Positions 14,110 to 20,011 of a stretch of DNA of 64,000 nucleotides are shown here, one piece after another (the first letter of the stretch is position 1; every line of letters starts with the position of its first letter). The stretch is from Escherichia phage KEP2: the sequence record PP047752; one strand, written 5' to 3'. Made by a program: the position numbers and the translations under genes. The notes beneath the pieces are model-generated. The model did no database searches and was not told the origin of the DNA. It was given only the letters and a program-made list of their open reading frames with translations.

Positions 14110-15210
14110 TTACTCATAATCCCTAATAACGAGGCCAACAGGGAACTGTAAAGAACCCTTACGAGTCATCTTCTGGAACTGAACAGTTAAAGGTTTCCCG
14201 ATAAACTCTTCAGGATGTTCAGCAAGATACTGTTTCTTCTCGTGTGTAGTTTTCCATGAAACATCTACAAAGACGTTAGGAAGAGTCTCTACAACAAACT
14301 TGCCATGACCACGTTTGTCAGTTTTTACACCAGTCACTTTAAACTCTTCCGTGTGCATCTTCTTGTGCTTAATCAAGAAGTATGAACGGTGACAACACTC
14401 ATAGAAGGAGTCTTCAGAGATTGAACGGTACATTGCACCTTCAAACTTAGCTTCAACCCACTTATCATGAGCTTCATCAAACTCCTCCCAAGAGTTCACA
14501 CGGATAGTCTGTACAGGAACCACTCTACAGGTATCACCAAGCTCAATAATGGGTGAGTTATCAATAACTTCACGACGCTCAGGCCAAGTTTTTGAATTGT
14601 CACAGATATCATACCAGTAGAATTTAAGAAGGTGACGTTCTGGGTTGTCAGTATTCTTAATCATAGACACAATATCTTCTAAGTCCCAACCGTGAGCATA
14701 AATCTCACCATCAAAGTCTTCGACTTGTGGATGCAATTTAAGCAACAAAAGCAAATCTGGGATTAGCTCTGCTGGTACGTTGTAAACAGTATTCTCACGA
14801 GAATAAGCCGTGAAACTAACTAAATCAGCATCTCTTGAAATTCTACAACGGACACCATCAAGTTTCGGTTGAGCATCAGCAGGGAACTTCAGATACTTTG
14901 CATGACTAACCTTTGCAGCATCATGAGCAAGCTGCACACCTACCTTTTCAGTATTCTGTGCAGACTCTTTTGTATAAGCATAACCTTTGCGGTCAACTTG
15001 CTTTTTGTACTTAGCAGTAACTTCAAAGAGAGCTTGCTGTTCAGCATTACGCTCATTCTTTTTACCGATGTTTTTAGGTTCTGCTGTATACTCTTCAAAC
15101 ATCATCTTGCCATTTTCTTTACCGTAGGTTGTAATGACTTTGTCACCTACAGCAACGCATGACCAGACGTTAAAAGAACCATCTTTATTCTGTTTGTATA
15201 GTATTGTCAT
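14110..15210 (-). CDS. ATP-dependent DNA ligase
   Basis: Motif I KLDGVR (adenylation lysine); start re-called to MTILYKQ to avoid overlap. Confidence 0.75.
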   Translation of the reverse strand: MTILYKQNKDGSFNVWSCVAVGDKVITTYGKENGKMMFEEYTAEPKNIGKKNERNAEQQALFEVTAKYKKQVDRKGYAYTKESAQNTEKVGVQLAHDAAKVSHAKYLKFPADAQPKLDGVRCRISRDADLVSFTAYSRENTVYNVPAELIPDLLLLLKLHPQVEDFDGEIYAHGWDLEDIVSMIKNTDNPERHLLKFYWYDICDNSKTWPERREVIDNSPIIELGDTCRVVPVQTIRVNSWEEFDEAHDKWVEAKFEGAMYRSISEDSFYECCHRSYFLIKHKKMHTEEFKVTGVKTDKRGHGKFVVETLPNVFVDVSWKTTHEKKQYLAEHPEEFIGKPLTVQFQKMTRKGSLQFPVGLVIRDYE

Positions 15211-15211
15211 T

Positions 15212-15403
15212 TTATTCCTCTGAGTGATACCAAGTATTGCAAGCATTACATGCGTAAAGCTCTAAGTCATTTTTATCTGGTTTATGAAAACAGTTTGCTC
15301 CGCAGTGGCAACGAAATGGCTTTCCACCAACTGTAAGGATGAAGGATTGAACCTTTCCATCAGGAGTTCGTACAGCATTTTTATGTTTATCTTCTTTGTT
15401 CAT
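15212..15403 (-). CDS. small zinc-ribbon protein (paralog A)
   Basis: FRCHCGANCFHKPD...CNACN; paralog of 15728..15931. Confidence 0.4.
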   Translation of the reverse strand: MNKEDKHKNAVRTPDGKVQSFILTVGGKPFRCHCGANCFHKPDKNDLELYACNACNTWYHSEE

Positions 15404-15476: not shown

Positions 15477-15731
15477 TTAGTGATTAATTGAATTTACTAA
15501 TTCCATGTGTTTTTCGTAGAAACATAAACATTTTTTATCTTGCTCATTTATGTAGCTCTCATAAAATTCTGGTGATTCTGGTCTTTCACCAAATGAAATA
15601 ACCTTTAGGTAGTACTTCCCATATGTGGAGCTATCTAACCAAGAGTCAAATAGTAATTTCTTAGTATTAGTCTTTGGAGGGATTACCAAACTTTTCTCAT
15701 ACAATTCCTTCATTTCTTGGGTTATCTTCAT
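15477..15731 (-). CDS. hypothetical protein
   Basis: 84-aa ORF between the two zinc-ribbon paralogs. Confidence 0.3.
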   Translation of the reverse strand: MKITQEMKELYEKSLVIPPKTNTKKLLFDSWLDSSTYGKYYLKVISFGERPESPEFYESYINEQDKKCLCFYEKHMELVNSINH

Positions 15732-15931
15732 TGCATATCCTTAATCTTACCTAAGAACCTTACCCCACAGTTATTACACTCGTATGTGTCTAACTTTGTG
15801 TTATCAGGTTTGTGAAAACAGTTTGACCCACAACGACACCGGAATAGTTTACCATCAACACGAAGAATGAACGTCTCAAGCTCACCCTCTTCTGTAAGAA
15901 CTGCGTTTTTCAATTTATCTCCTACAGTCAT
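15728..15931 (-). CDS. small zinc-ribbon protein (paralog B)
   Basis: FRCRCGSNCFHKPD...CNNCG; clear similarity to 15212..15403 product. Confidence 0.4.
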   Translation of the reverse strand: MTVGDKLKNAVLTEEGELETFILRVDGKLFRCRCGSNCFHKPDNTKLDTYECNNCGVRFLGKIKDMQ

Positions 15932-16144: not shown

Positions 16145-16381
16145 TCACTCAATAACCGTAGTATGTGATTGACCATTTTTGCCATAACTATAAGATGTTG
16201 TTGTTTGAGAGTTTGGACACCTGACAACAACAATATCTCTGCTTATTGCATCCCCATTTAACTTATAGACTTTGCAATCTTGCATCTCTGGTGGGAGACT
16301 ATAAGAAGCATTTTTGTCCTCGTAAGAGGGATTACAGCCAGATAGAAAGATAACACCAAGCACAATTACTGCTTTCCACAT
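16145..16381 (-). CDS. small lipoprotein
   Basis: Signal peptide with lipobox-like FLSGC; 78 aa. Confidence 0.4.
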   Translation of the reverse strand: MWKAVIVLGVIFLSGCNPSYEDKNASYSLPPEMQDCKVYKLNGDAISRDIVVVRCPNSQTTTSYSYGKNGQSHTTVIE

Positions 16382-16568
16382 AATACTCCTCCTATTTACT
16401 GTTCACGATGTTCTACTTCTCTGTACGTTCGTCGATAGTATATAATAAGCTGTGCTAATTCGTTGCTTTTAACATCGGAGCGTAACAGTTGCCAATCAAA
16501 GCCTTTACCTACCCTACCATATAAACTAAACAACTTCACTTTGCGTTTCATTTTGGTATCCCCAATAC

Positions 16569-16796
16569 TCAGAGGTCAATACTAATACGTTCACCTTTAA
16601 GGACTCCTGTACGGTCCCTTGCAATCTTACCGTCAACAATAAGGATATGTGCAGACCTTAAAGATTCACTATTAAAACCTTTTAAGAACTTGCTAGGCAT
16701 CACTACAATACACATCTCCTGAATCAACTCTGGAGTATAGCAGTTGTCGTGAAGTTGCTGAATAACGTCTGCAAGTGTCATTTTTGATGTCTCCAA
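16569..16796 (-). CDS. small protein, paralog family member A
   Basis: C-terminal DGKIARDRTGVLKGERISI matches GGKIAKDKTGYLKGERVDI of 16984..17193. Confidence 0.35.
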   Translation of the reverse strand: METSKMTLADVIQQLHDNCYTPELIQEMCIVVMPSKFLKGFNSESLRSAHILIVDGKIARDRTGVLKGERISIDL

Positions 16797-16987
16797 TACT
16801 CAATGTCAATAAGTTCTTGTGCAATGCTTTTCAGATTACCTTTCAAGAAAACCTTCTCAGAACCTGAAAGAGATGAATTGTCAATTAACCTGCTCATTCT
16901 CTCAAACAACTTCTGCTTACGGTTCTTGATAGTCTCATTTGAAGCACCTTTCATCATCGCTGCATGGGTTCTTCCACGGTGACTCAT
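16778..16987 (-). CDS. hypothetical basic protein
   Basis: 69-aa ORF between paralogs. Confidence 0.3.
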   Translation of the reverse strand: MSHRGRTHAAMMKGASNETIKNRKQKLFERMSRLIDNSSLSGSEKVFLKGNLKSIAQELIDIEYWRHQK

Positions 16988-17193
16988 AGCAAATTCTCGA
17001 TGTCTACACGTTCACCTTTTAAGTACCCTGTCTTGTCTTTTGCGATTTTCCCTCCAGCAATAAAGATATCTGCTATACGCAGAGCTTCAGGGTTTACTCT
17101 ATAACCACTGCAAATAACAATAAGCATGTCTTCAATCTCTTTTTGAGAATAACCTGCACATTGCAACTGAACTTCAATCTCTGAAAGCGTCAT
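16984..17193 (-). CDS. small protein, paralog family member B
   Basis: See 16569..16796. Confidence 0.35.
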   Translation of the reverse strand: MTLSEIEVQLQCAGYSQKEIEDMLIVICSGYRVNPEALRIADIFIAGGKIAKDKTGYLKGERVDIENLL

Positions 17194-17254
17194 GTGACCT
17201 CCTATACAAGATACAGTATAAGGTACTCTTCCATGAGCACCTTGTCAATACTAA

Positions 17255-19954
17255 TTAGTGTACTTCAAGCCAGCTTTTACCAACCTTACCAGTACCTGTT
17301 ACAAGTGTTTCTTTCTTAAGACCTAAGTTCTTAGAAGCTTGTCCATAATACCAGTCAGTAACTGCTTTCACTTCTGCCGTCATACTTTCTGGACATTCCC
17401 AGCTTGTTTCATCGTGATATGCGCAGAGCAAACGAGCACCAATAGCTGGTTTACGACCATTTAACTTCATCAAACCTTCGTCAATCATACGACGACAAGC
17501 AAGGTTAATTGCCTCATTTTGAATCTGAGCCTCTGAACCCATCAAAAGATAGTTCAACAGTTTGTGTGGAGATTTACACCACAACCAAGCTCCAGCAACC
17601 TTTACAAATCCCCCTTTAGAGATTGCAGCGGTCTTACCAAAAACCTCTTCAAGTGCCTTTTTAGTCGCTTTGTAGTCAGCTTCCAAGTCATCTAGCAACT
17701 TCTTAATTTTAGGCAAACGAATAAAGTAAGTCTGTTTAGTCAGTGCACCTTCCTGAGTAGTTGCAGCTTTAATTGTCTTAGCAAACTTCTCATCACCTGC
17801 ACCGAACAGCAGTGCATAGATACCATTCTTAGCTTTTTTACGACCCTTACTAATCTCATGGAGAAGATTCTCATCCTGAGTGGCTCGACAAGTCAAGATA
17901 TCCTGCTCATCATTCAAGCTAAAGTAAATACTGTTCAGTGTGTGTGCATCAGTCCCTGAATAGACAACGTACAGGTCATTCTCAGAGTCATAGCGGAGGT
18001 ACTTATCAATCTCTGGGTTGAGGTACTCATCAAAGTGTTTGCAGTAATAGCGTCCATCTTCTTGACGAATAAACTCAATCTCTTCTTTACCTTGCGTTAC
18101 CGCTTTGGTGAAGTCTTTGTCACCCATAAAGTTACAAAGGAGAACTAGCTGGGCTGAGTTCATGTCTACAGAGACAACATTAGTACCTTCTTCACAAATC
18201 CACACTGCCCTCATTGGTTCCCCATAGACAGCAGCACCAGACGGTACGTTTACAATACCATATTGTGTCATACGTCCAGTTGAAGTACCAAATACCATTG
18301 CACCAGCACTAAGGCGACCATCTGGACGAATCTGGTTTAGCCAACCTTTTTCATCATCCTTTGAGTTCTCAATAGTTCTGCGTCTGTGCATCAAAGTATA
18401 GTACTTAGCAATCTTCTGTCCAAGCTCACCTTCAATCGTATCATAAGATGATTCAGTAAGTTTTGGTGAAGTACGGATTAAGCAAGGCTCAAGCAAATCT
18501 GTGTACTTCTTCACAGACCAGTTATGCTCGATGTACTGTACACCTTCATGTTCAACATAACTCAAACCACACCGCTCAACCATTTCCTGCCACTTAGGAT
18601 GCTTTGTAATCATCTTTTTATTGTCTTTGAAACGACAAACTTTGACAGGGCGACCGTCTGAATCTTTCTTGTAGTTCCAGTCATCTGGAATCCAACCAAC
18701 TGATTTCAAGTAGTCTTTAACAACTGCTACCTGAGTCATACGAGAAACTTCAAACTCAATTGGTGTATATGGTGCATCAATCAATCCTGTGTAGCGACTT
18801 GACTCAAGCTCAAAGTGGTTAACAACATGACTGTTATAGTACTTCACAGTTTTAACTGTTTTTACTGGCTTCCAGTCTTTGCATTTCTTACCAATCTTTG
18901 CATTCAACTCATTGCAAATTGCACGAGCATCCTTCATTGCTACAAAACCTTCCTTGTACTCTTCACCAGTTACAGAGTTGGTTGGTGTATAGCAATTTCT
19001 CTTTTCAATGTTAAAAATCTTTGTAGTTGGCTTACCAAATGGCTTGATTTCATATGTCTGCATCTCACCGTTACGTACCTGCTGACGATACTTTGTCTTA
19101 GGGTACTTGGTAATTCTCTTCAGTCCATCTGCGTGACCAAATGCTTCAACATACTCATTCCAAGCTTTTGCAAACTCTTCTCCAGTGACTTTACCTTTGG
19201 TCTTGATAGTTGGTGGAAGGTGTGGTTCAACTTCTGAAGCAAGCTCATTAGTCAGCTTGTCAAGTTCCTTTACATGGAACTCCATAAGCTCTTTATCAGC
19301 TTTCCAACCATTGATAGCCTGTTGACTCATCCAGAAAGATGTTTCTTTAGCTCGCATGTAGGTTTCATAAGTATCTATGCCACACTTCTTCAGCTTGAGA
19401 TATTCATTATCCAGTGCGCGTTTAGTTTTGGCGTTAATACGGATATCTTCCACAACACGAGTGAAGATTTCTGCATTCCACACACCCCAATGTTCAATCT
19501 CTGGTTTACGTACACCAACACGAGCACCCCATGCTGCCAAGCCATGAGCACCTTTATAACCTTTTGGAGTTGGTCTATCCATCCACTGAACACGAGACTG
19601 GATAAGAGAATCCTGAAAGAAATTACTCCACGGCTTACACTTTGGATTATCAAAGTTCCACAAATCAGGTGCAATGTGATTGAAAACCCACCAGTCATAC
19701 CCCAGACCATTATGGATGCAGAGTCGTTTTGCCTTTAACGCAAACTCAATGCCTTCACGTAAGCCACCCTTAATGTACTTGGTATACTTGTGACCGAGGA
19801 TAGGTTCATCTGTAAAGACCCATACAGGCGGCTCTTCATCGTCAGATTTATAGTCTGCGAAAGCCATTACGTGCACTTTAGTGAACTCAAGGAGTAAACC
19901 ATCAGTTTCTGTATCACCAACTAAATGTAAGTTTTTAAAATCTACGTTTTCCAT
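17255..19954 (-). CDS. DNA polymerase, family A (T7-like) with 3'-5' exonuclease domain
   Basis: N-terminal LVGDTETDGL exo motif; ~900 aa; start re-called to MENVDF with GAGGGAG SD. Confidence 0.85.
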   Translation of the reverse strand: MENVDFKNLHLVGDTETDGLLLEFTKVHVMAFADYKSDDEEPPVWVFTDEPILGHKYTKYIKGGLREGIEFALKAKRLCIHNGLGYDWWVFNHIAPDLWNFDNPKCKPWSNFFQDSLIQSRVQWMDRPTPKGYKGAHGLAAWGARVGVRKPEIEHWGVWNAEIFTRVVEDIRINAKTKRALDNEYLKLKKCGIDTYETYMRAKETSFWMSQQAINGWKADKELMEFHVKELDKLTNELASEVEPHLPPTIKTKGKVTGEEFAKAWNEYVEAFGHADGLKRITKYPKTKYRQQVRNGEMQTYEIKPFGKPTTKIFNIEKRNCYTPTNSVTGEEYKEGFVAMKDARAICNELNAKIGKKCKDWKPVKTVKTVKYYNSHVVNHFELESSRYTGLIDAPYTPIEFEVSRMTQVAVVKDYLKSVGWIPDDWNYKKDSDGRPVKVCRFKDNKKMITKHPKWQEMVERCGLSYVEHEGVQYIEHNWSVKKYTDLLEPCLIRTSPKLTESSYDTIEGELGQKIAKYYTLMHRRRTIENSKDDEKGWLNQIRPDGRLSAGAMVFGTSTGRMTQYGIVNVPSGAAVYGEPMRAVWICEEGTNVVSVDMNSAQLVLLCNFMGDKDFTKAVTQGKEEIEFIRQEDGRYYCKHFDEYLNPEIDKYLRYDSENDLYVVYSGTDAHTLNSIYFSLNDEQDILTCRATQDENLLHEISKGRKKAKNGIYALLFGAGDEKFAKTIKAATTQEGALTKQTYFIRLPKIKKLLDDLEADYKATKKALEEVFGKTAAISKGGFVKVAGAWLWCKSPHKLLNYLLMGSEAQIQNEAINLACRRMIDEGLMKLNGRKPAIGARLLCAYHDETSWECPESMTAEVKAVTDWYYGQASKNLGLKKETLVTGTGKVGKSWLEVH

Positions 19955-20011
19955 TTTTACTCCCTCTAAAATCATTAACCTCATACATTACTGCAAAAAA
20001 TTATAAAAAGC

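What the first reader, a model, noticed from the sequence alone, without database searches (positions are those of the whole stretch)
16569..17193. Second paralogous small-gene pair next to the DNA polymerase gene
The products of 16569..16796 and 16984..17193 share a C-terminal motif (D/G)GKIA(R/K)D(R/K)TG.LKGER(I/V).I and similar length (75 and 69 aa), separated by a basic 69-aa ORF. Together with the zinc-ribbon pair this makes a 2-kb island of duplicated small genes inside the replication module.
Basis: seen in the sequence. Interest (0 to 1): 0.45.

Follow-up and report, generated by a model that had tools for sequence, protein, structure and literature searches.

The report
Two diverged small phage gene copies
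Two small genes just downstream of the DNA polymerase gene of a Felix O1-like phage are real, anciently diverged copies of one phage-only protein family of unknown function, an arrangement already present in about 34 sequenced relatives, so it is genuine but ordinary.

Summary
Both match phrog_4230, a family of unknown function.

The window is a Felixounavirus genome. The family is tiny: 14 representatives among 1.84 billion proteins, all found so far in Ounavirinae-like phages, always just downstream of the polA gene.

Comparison of 24 related loci shows two cassette slots flanking a conserved basic helical-hairpin gene.
- Felix O1-type phages fill the downstream slot with an A-type copy.
- Moogle-type phages fill the upstream slot with a B-type copy.
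- About 13% of genomes, including this one, fill both.

The split is old (dS saturated), and each copy is under purifying selection (dN/dS about 0.17). It is therefore not a recent local duplication.

The AlphaFold2 model is confident (pLDDT 92) but matches no solved structure. The Felix O1 ortholog is transcribed in the middle class, together with the polymerase and ligase genes.

My best guess at function is a non-enzymatic small binder of a host or replication-linked protein. That is inference only. Interest is low.

The parts
16984..17193 (-). Copy B: 69-aa acidic protein (pI 4.8) of phrog_4230, in slot 1, the first gene after the polymerase gene
   Evidence: ORF. phrog_4230 match E 5e-33. 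AF2 model pLDDT 92. 100% identical to phage mio and 82% to Sf19 gp75. Strong GGAGG ribosome-binding site 5 nt upstream. B-type orthologs have dN/dS 0.16.
16778..16987 (-). Conserved basic 69-aa gene (phrog_5180, pI 10.3) between the two copies. Its start overlaps the stop of copy B, and its stop overlaps the start of copy A, each as ATGA.
   Evidence: all homologs at least 73% identical, Ounavirinae only. AF2 gives a helical hairpin, pLDDT 81. Present in all 24 loci compared. A homolog, gp83, is present in phiEa21-4.
16569..16781 (-). Copy A: 70-aa protein (pI 6.0) of phrog_4230, in slot 2. Ortholog of Felix O1 ORF93 (Felix01p173) and Bas63 bas63_0044.
   Evidence: A-type orthologs have dN/dS 0.17 over 90 pairs. 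Felix O1 ORF93 transcript is maximal at 25 min (PMC3185647 Table 3).
17194..17254 (-). Conserved leader between the polymerase stop codon and the first small gene. It holds a TTGACA box, a 9-bp stem-loop and a GGAGG ribosome-binding site.
   Evidence: The same roughly 55-nt sequence precedes copy B where B is present, and precedes the basic gene where B is absent. Unique in the window. RNA fold -21.4 kcal/mol, z -2.55.
16782..16802 (-). Junction repeat, copy 1 (TGAGTATTGGAGACATCAAAA): the 3' end of the basic gene plus the ribosome-binding site of copy A
   Evidence: The junction is conserved whatever gene follows in slot 2.
16551..16571 (-). Junction repeat, copy 2 (TGAGTATTGGGGATACCAAAA): stop codon of copy A plus the ribosome-binding site of the 51-aa gene
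   Evidence: Two matches in the window against 0.03 expected by chance. Found only with the 70-aa '..ISIDL' allele of copy A.
16396..16551 (-). Downstream basic 51-aa gene (phrog_2381), a variable member of the same small-gene block
17255..19984 (-). Family A DNA polymerase gene, the upstream anchor of the block (context only)

Best explanation
What is shown. The two ORFs are functional, anciently diverged paralogs of a small protein family about 70 aa long (phrog_4230) that has been found only in Felix O1-like (Ounavirinae) phages. They sit in a block of translationally coupled small genes that follows the polA gene behind a conserved leader. In Felix O1 this block is transcribed with the replication genes, in the middle class.

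The family gene can occupy either of two cassette slots flanking a conserved basic helical-hairpin gene. Every Felixounavirus or Mooglevirus-grade genome keeps at least one copy: A-type downstream of the basic gene, or B-type upstream of it. This phage, like about 13% of its relatives, carries both. The likeliest origin is recombination between lineages at conserved gene-junction sequences, not local duplication.

What is inferred. The protein is a compact alpha/beta domain with no catalytic signature and no DNA-binding features. I think it most likely acts stoichiometrically, binding a host protein or a replication-associated protein during the replication phase. It would use a conserved face made of the N-terminal helix and the KD(K/R)TGxLKGE hairpin-loop. 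The variable middle segment (residues about 26-42) would give the A and B types different partner specificity or affinity, so that carrying both broadens or doubles the activity.
For: Paralogy: 43% identity, E 8e-17; same PHROG; shuffle test.

Both are real genes: dN/dS is 0.17 for A and 0.16 for B. Between A and B, pN is 0.34 and pS 0.62, so the conservation is at the protein level. The AF2 model is confident, pLDDT 92 and pTM 0.78.

Restricted family: 14 representatives in 1.84e9 proteins. It is in 252-254 phage records, all Ounavirinae-type. That equals the number of records whose polymerase is at least 80% identical.

Slot architecture and the rarity of two copies.

Exact cassette boundaries: the same leader lies upstream of B or of the basic gene, and there are junction repeats.

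Expression: Felix O1 ORF93 peaks at 25 min, together with ORF96 (polymerase) and ORF88 (ligase) (PMC3185647 Table 3).

Interchangeability with other small accessory genes: in other phages slot 2 holds an unrelated 83-aa ORFan, or a borderline Tad2-like protein (PF11195, 24.9 bits against a cut-off of 25).

Linkage to polA persists in divergent members that are only 33-47% identical: L030, L034 and L035.
Against: No experiment or homology bears on the function, so the binder model rests on exclusion and on context.
- Universal retention of at least one copy in about 254 genomes is more typical of a core function than of a counter-defence accessory.
- Conversely, the family is undetectable in Kolesnikvirus phiEa21-4, whose polymerase is 75% identical. 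That argues against an indispensable replisome role.
- The basic gene is not an obligate partner: phiEa21-4 has it without the family, and L030 has the family without it.
- The direction and mechanism of cassette gain or loss are inferred from only 24 loci.
- The Tad2-like hint is below Pfam's threshold and has no PDB sequence support.
Confidence: 0.45

Rival explanations
1. Replisome accessory factor. The protein binds the phage family A polymerase, or the ligase or primase-helicase, as a processivity or coupling subunit, as thioredoxin does for T7 gp5. Under this reading the A and B types are interchangeable isoforms.
For: The gene always lies immediately downstream of polA and upstream of the ligase gene, even in members only 33-47% identical. 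In L030 only two small genes separate polymerase and ligase, and one of them is the family member. At least one copy is present in all roughly 254 genomes of the clade. It is co-expressed with polymerase and ligase in Felix O1.
Against: None is detectable in phiEa21-4, which has an orthologous polymerase 75% identical. Synteny among related phages is largely inherited and so is weak evidence for interaction. The two paralogs differ strongly (43% identity) although the polymerase is 94-100% conserved among their carriers. No similarity to any known polymerase accessory protein was found.
Confidence: 0.2
2. Recent local tandem duplication. One copy gave rise to the other in this genome or its immediate ancestor, and the extra copy is redundant or decaying.
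For: Two homologous genes lie 200 bp apart, with a 66-nt stretch of 73% DNA identity in the C-terminal motif.
Against: dS between A and B is about 1.3, which is saturated. Each copy has closer orthologs in other genera than its neighbour in the same genome. An unrelated conserved gene separates them in all genomes. Both are under purifying selection. Single-copy genomes carry either type, each in its own slot.
Confidence: 0.03
3. Two-component module with the basic gene. The acidic family protein and the basic helical-hairpin protein form a complex, for example an inhibitor and its regulator, or an antitoxin-like pair. The extra copy adjusts stoichiometry.
For: The two genes are adjacent in all 24 Felixounavirus and Mooglevirus loci, on either side of the basic gene, with ATGA start/stop overlaps that suggest translational coupling. 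Their charges are opposite: pI 4.8 and 6.0 against 10.3.
Against: The two are uncoupled at greater evolutionary distance. phiEa21-4 has the basic gene flanked by unrelated genes, and L030 and L034 have the family gene without a recognisable basic gene. Complex prediction could not be run with the tools available.
Confidence: 0.15

Closest known systems
phrog_4230 / Felix O1 ORF93 (Felix01p173), JH2 gp60, Sf19 gp75, Bas63 bas63_0044
   Same: Direct orthologs: 82-100% identical for B-type and about 90% for A-type, with the same position after polA. The two-copy arrangement already exists in deposited genomes such as JH2, UAB_Phi87, HMD-P10 and mio.
   Different: Nothing is different. All are annotated as hypothetical proteins, and I found no functional study.
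T7 class II small genes downstream of DNA polymerase gene 5: gp5.5 (binds H-NS), gp5.7 (inhibits RNA polymerase holoenzyme with sigma-S), gp5.9 (inhibits RecBCD). From my own knowledge, not tested here.
   Same: Small non-enzymatic proteins encoded just after a family A polymerase gene and expressed with the replication genes, which act by binding host proteins. This is the working analogy for mechanism.
   Different: No sequence or fold similarity was detected to any solved structure. The analogy is positional only.
Modular cassette shuffling in hyperplastic regions of T4-type phages, through short conserved regulatory or junction sequences (PeSL elements). From my own knowledge.
   Same: Gene-sized insertions and deletions with exact boundaries at conserved leader or junction sequences. 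Different small ORFans alternate in the same slot.
   Different: The junctions here are coding 3' ends plus ribosome-binding sites and ATGA overlaps, not promoter stem-loops. No mechanism was demonstrated. A homing endonuclease (HNH) gene next to slot 1 in many relatives may also drive exchange.
Uncharacterised 73-aa protein B0FIR2 of phage phiEco32, and the EP335 homolog (BFVD models)
   Same: The only structural neighbours found. Foldseek probability 0.97, TM-score 0.57-0.60 over 59 columns.
   Different: E is only 0.07 and identity 19%. The function is also unknown, and its genomic context was not examined.

Membership tests
phrog_4230 (phage protein family of unknown function) | Full-length match to the family HMM | tested here: met
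   Copy A matches at E 1.5e-41 (residues 6-74 of the 75-aa form against profile positions 1-69 of 72). Copy B matches at E 5e-33 (1-69 against 1-72).
Recent tandem gene duplication | The copies are each other's closest relatives and show low synonymous divergence | tested here: not met
   dS is about 1.29 and dN 0.45 between A and B. B is 82-86% identical to Mooglevirus orthologs and A 89% to the Felix O1 ortholog, against 43-48% between A and B.
S4-like RNA-binding domain (considered because of the helix-helix-...G.I....G..V.I pattern) | Match to the Pfam S4 model, or the alpha-L fold found by structure comparison | tested here: not met
HAD / P-type ATPase phosphorylation motif (DKTG in copy B, DRTG in copy A) | Rossmann-like HAD core carrying motifs I-IV | tested here: not met
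   The protein is only about 70 aa. There is no Pfam or NCBIfam HAD hit. The only HAD entry in Foldseek, 3fzq, has E 9 and TM-score 0.41. The resemblance is limited to four residues.
Tad2-like / DUF2829 anti-Thoeris sponge (PF11195) | Pfam match above the gathering score | tested here: not met
   Copies A and B give no hit. Only the unrelated slot-2 gene of Citrobacter phage Maleficent scores, at 24.9 bits against a cut-off of 25 (E 3e-5), and it has no PDB sequence match.
Known anti-defence or host-takeover small proteins (as a functional class) | Demonstrated binding to, or inhibition of, a host factor or defence system | not testable with these tools
   The main text of the PhageMaP study of Bas63 does not mention g44 or g45, and its supplementary fitness tables are not held.

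The most novel reading that the evidence does not exclude
The family could be a new small protein fold that is kept in at least one copy by every Felixounavirus and Mooglevirus phage because it neutralises a specific enterobacterial factor during phage DNA replication, for instance a replication-targeting defence or a host nuclease or repair protein. Under this reading the A and B types recognise different variants of the target, so two-copy phages would have a broader host range. The family's absence from relatives that infect Erwinia, Pectobacterium and Hafnia would then reflect absence of the target.
Probability: 0.15. Interest if true: 0.55.

Novelty: new member of a known kind. Interest (0 to 1): 0.2.

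Why it matters
The practical value is modest. The work clarifies how the polymerase-ligase interval of Felix O1-like phages is built: a conserved leader, a conserved basic gene, and exchangeable small-gene cassettes on either side. These phages are widely used for Salmonella and E. coli typing, biocontrol and therapy.

It also singles out one ORFan family as unusually well retained, confidently folded and without a structural relative. That makes it a reasonable target for a knockout or pull-down study. As it stands, it does not change any concept.

Tried and rejected
- Sequence searches. Pfam and NCBIfam gave nothing meaningful. The only NCBIfam hit was 21.9 bits against a cut-off of 618. A profile search of PDB sequences returned only noise.
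- S4-domain and HAD 'DKTG' ideas, prompted by the sequence pattern. Both were rejected, because no fold or family support was found.
- Exhaustive profile search of 1.84e9 proteins. The only hits outside the family were two long repeat proteins, P0039 and P0041, which match a short KD/KTG-like stretch several times. I judged these spurious low-complexity matches.
- The idea that the basic gene is an obligate partner. It is weakened by phiEa21-4 and L030.
- The basic gene's structure. It is a plain helical hairpin, which would not be informative in a fold search, so none was run.
- Literature. The Felix O1 genome paper gives only the transcription class. The main text of the PhageMaP Bas63 study does not mention g44 or g45, and its supplements are not held. 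Three other full-text searches found nothing on this family.
- Looking for the conserved leader as a repeated phage promoter. It is unique in the window.

Full report
**Identity of the window.** The region 16300-17400 is 96% identical to Felixounavirus LF110P2. It matches 253 phage records, all Felix O1-like myoviruses of Escherichia, Salmonella, Shigella and Citrobacter. All genes of interest are on the minus strand. Their order is:
- family A DNA polymerase (19984..17255)
- copy B (17193..16984)
- a basic 69-aa gene (16987..16778)
- copy A (16781..16569)
- a basic 51-aa gene (16551..16396)
- a lipoprotein-like gene, a 68-aa gene, zinc-ribbon gene 1, an 84-aa gene and zinc-ribbon gene 2
- ATP-dependent DNA ligase (15246..14110)

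(Gene order.)

**The observation.** It is confirmed.
- BLASTP aligns the two products end to end: 43% identity, 64% positives, one 3-residue gap, E 8e-17.
- The Smith-Waterman score is 126, against 22.5 +/- 4.2 for 5000 shuffles.
- Both match phrog_4230 over its whole length.
- A family HMM finds exactly these two copies in the six-frame translation of the window.
- The similarity is at the protein level. Between A and B, pN is 0.34 and pS 0.62.
The ATG has a GGAG upstream, overlaps the preceding stop as ATGA, corresponds to Met1 of copy B, and is the start annotated in relatives.

**Are they real genes?** Yes.
- Among 14 A-type orthologs the median dN/dS is 0.17 (90 pairs). Among 6 B-type orthologs it is 0.16.
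- AlphaFold2, using a 13-sequence alignment, gives a confident compact model: pLDDT 92, pTM 0.78, with topology helix-helix-strand-helix-hairpin-helix.
- In Felix O1 the A-type ortholog (ORF93 = Felix01p173) was detected by RT-PCR. Its expression was maximal at 25 min, the same class as ORF96 (polymerase), ORF88 (ligase), ORF89 and ORF90 (PMC3185647 Table 3).

**Distribution.**
- The family is very small. A full HMMER scan of 1.84 billion representative proteins gave 14 hits, 7 of them below 1e-10.
- In GenBank phages it occurs in 252-254 records. This equals the 254 records whose polymerase C-terminal region is at least 80% identical to the window's.
- It is not detectable downstream of the polymerase gene in Kolesnikvirus phiEa21-4, whose polymerase is 75% identical.
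- Members only 33-47% identical turn up in metagenomic contigs, and again they lie just after an orthologous polA gene. The layouts are L030 (polymerase - 75 aa - family member - ligase), L034 (polymerase - 83 aa - family member - two small genes - ligase) and L035 (polymerase - family member).

**Architecture.** I mapped 14 reference proteins onto 24 loci and read the ORFs. The common plan is: polymerase - [HNH homing endonuclease, present or absent] - leader - [slot 1] - basic gene - [slot 2] - [51-aa gene, present or absent] - lipoprotein - 68-aa gene - [zinc-ribbon and 84-aa genes, variable] - ligase.
- The basic gene is present in all 24 loci.
- Slot 2 holds an A-type copy in Felix O1-type phages. 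In Moogle-type phages it holds an unrelated 83-aa ORFan. In Citrobacter phage Maleficent it holds a 67-aa protein that scores just under Pfam's threshold for Tad2-like (24.9 against 25 bits, E 3e-5).
- Slot 1 is empty in Felix O1 and Bas63. It holds a B-type copy in Moogle-type phages and in a minority of Felixounaviruses.
- Every locus has at least one copy. Only the window, HMD-P10 (L001) and a UAB_Phi87-like contig (L014) have both.
- In GenBank, 65 records carry a B-type copy at 60% identity or better, and 34 records have two places. That is about 13% of genomes.

**Boundaries.** The presence or absence of copy B is an exact gene-sized insertion or deletion. The same roughly 55-nt leader (GTTGACAAGGTGCTCATGGAAGAGTACCTTATACT...TATAGGAGG) lies immediately upstream of copy B where B is present, and immediately upstream of the basic gene where B is absent.
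- The leader is unique in the window. It folds into a stem-loop of -21.4 kcal/mol, z -2.55.
- The junction from the basic gene into slot 2 (..ATTGACATTGAGTATTGGAGACATCAAAAATG) is conserved whatever gene follows it.
- In the window a 21-nt copy of that junction recurs at the 3' end of copy A (16551-16571 and 16782-16802; 0.03 matches expected by chance).
- That recurrence goes with a particular C-terminal allele of copy A (..ISIDL, 70 aa) and a particular allele of the downstream 51-aa gene. The other allele (..IDILELL, 72 aa) overlaps the next gene directly.
- These patterns fit cassette exchange by recombination at short conserved junctions. That is inferred, not demonstrated.

**Age of the split.** A and B are 43-48% identical with saturated dS of about 1.3. 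In contrast, the window's copy B is 82-86% identical to Sf19 gp75, and its copy A is 89% identical to the Felix O1 ortholog. Maleficent carries an intermediate type in slot 1, so type and slot are not strictly tied. The pair in this window is therefore the co-occurrence of two old lineages, not a recent local duplication.

**Function.** No tool gave a functional assignment.
- There is no Pfam, NCBIfam or PDB-sequence match.
- The only structural neighbours are uncharacterised small proteins of phiEco32-like phages, at marginal significance.
- The conserved parts are the N-terminal helix (MT[LI]x[ED][IV]xxQL..Y) and the hairpin-loop G.I.KD[KR]TGxL.G. The segment between them (residues about 26-42) differs most between A and B.
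- The proteins are acidic to neutral (pI 4.8 and 6.0). Their constant neighbour is basic (pI 10.3) and is predicted to be a helical hairpin with a disordered basic N-terminus.

I commit to the reading that these are non-enzymatic small binders acting during the replication phase on a host protein or a replication-linked protein, with A and B differing in specificity.
- Support comes from size, fold, expression class, interchangeability of the slot with other small ORFans, and analogy with the small genes that follow T7 gene 5 (my own knowledge).
- Universal retention and persistent linkage to polA keep a replisome-accessory role alive (confidence 0.2).
- Adjacency, ATGA coupling and opposite charge keep a complex with the basic protein alive (0.15). 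However, the two genes occur separately in more distant phages.

**Novelty and interest.** The genes and the two-copy arrangement are already in dozens of public genomes as hypothetical proteins, and the family is already a PHROG. What is added here is:
- the formal demonstration of paralogy;
- the slot and cassette architecture;
- the evidence for selection on both copies;
- a confident model with no known structural relative.

This is an ordinary feature of phage genome mosaicism with an unknown-function family at its centre, so interest is low (0.2). Its Bas63 ortholog, g40 (bas63_0040), is reported as a trigger of the hhe defence system.

Noticed in passing
window 15728..15931(-) and 15212..15403(-), with the 84-aa ORF 15477..15731(-) between them: The zinc-ribbon pair is also real: 54% identity, E 2e-24. 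Like A and B, the two genes are separated by one unrelated gene. Only the window and L022, of 24 loci, carry both. The Bas63 ortholog bas63_0040 appears to be 'g40', which the PhageMaP preprint reports as a trigger of the hhe defence system (PMC11482910).
   Followed up: partly
window 17194..17254 (-): A leader of about 60 nt between the polymerase stop codon and the first small gene is conserved in all related loci, whichever gene follows it. It contains TTGACA, a 9-bp stem-loop and GGAGG. It is unique in the window and folds at -21.4 kcal/mol, z -2.55. It could be an internal promoter, a processing site or a translational operator.
   Followed up: partly
window 17255..17542 (-) (polymerase C-terminal 96 aa); loci L005, L020, L022, L025: The polymerase C-terminus is only 65-66% identical in genomes that carry the Felix O1-type HNH homing endonuclease gene overlapping the polymerase 3' end. 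It is 97-100% identical in genomes without that gene, including Mooglevirus Sf19. This looks like a sequence allele linked to the homing endonuclease. The window has no HNH gene at this position.
   Followed up: no
L006 2922..3125 (Citrobacter phage Maleficent gp040) and L027: The gene occupying slot 2 in these phages is a 67-aa protein that matches Pfam Tad2-like (PF11195) at 24.9 bits against a cut-off of 25, E 3e-5. There is no PDB sequence hit. This is a weak hint that the slot can hold counter-defence genes.
   Followed up: partly
window 16551..16571 and 16782..16802: A 21-nt direct repeat flanks copy A, with 0.03 matches expected by chance. Across loci it co-varies with a 70-aa '..ISIDL' allele of copy A and with the allele of the downstream 51-aa gene. 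This suggests a recombination junction inside the 3' end of the gene.
   Followed up: partly
L033 5497..5748 (Erwinia phage phiEa21-4 gp83): The basic helical-hairpin gene has a homolog in Kolesnikvirus. There it is flanked by a small membrane protein and a helical protein rather than by phrog_4230 members. The basic gene is therefore older or more widespread than the family studied here.
   Followed up: partly
whole window: ARAGORN finds no tRNA genes in the 64-kb window. The Felix O1 genome paper reports 22 tRNAs (abstract), so if this phage resembles Felix O1 its tRNA cluster lies outside the window.
   Followed up: no
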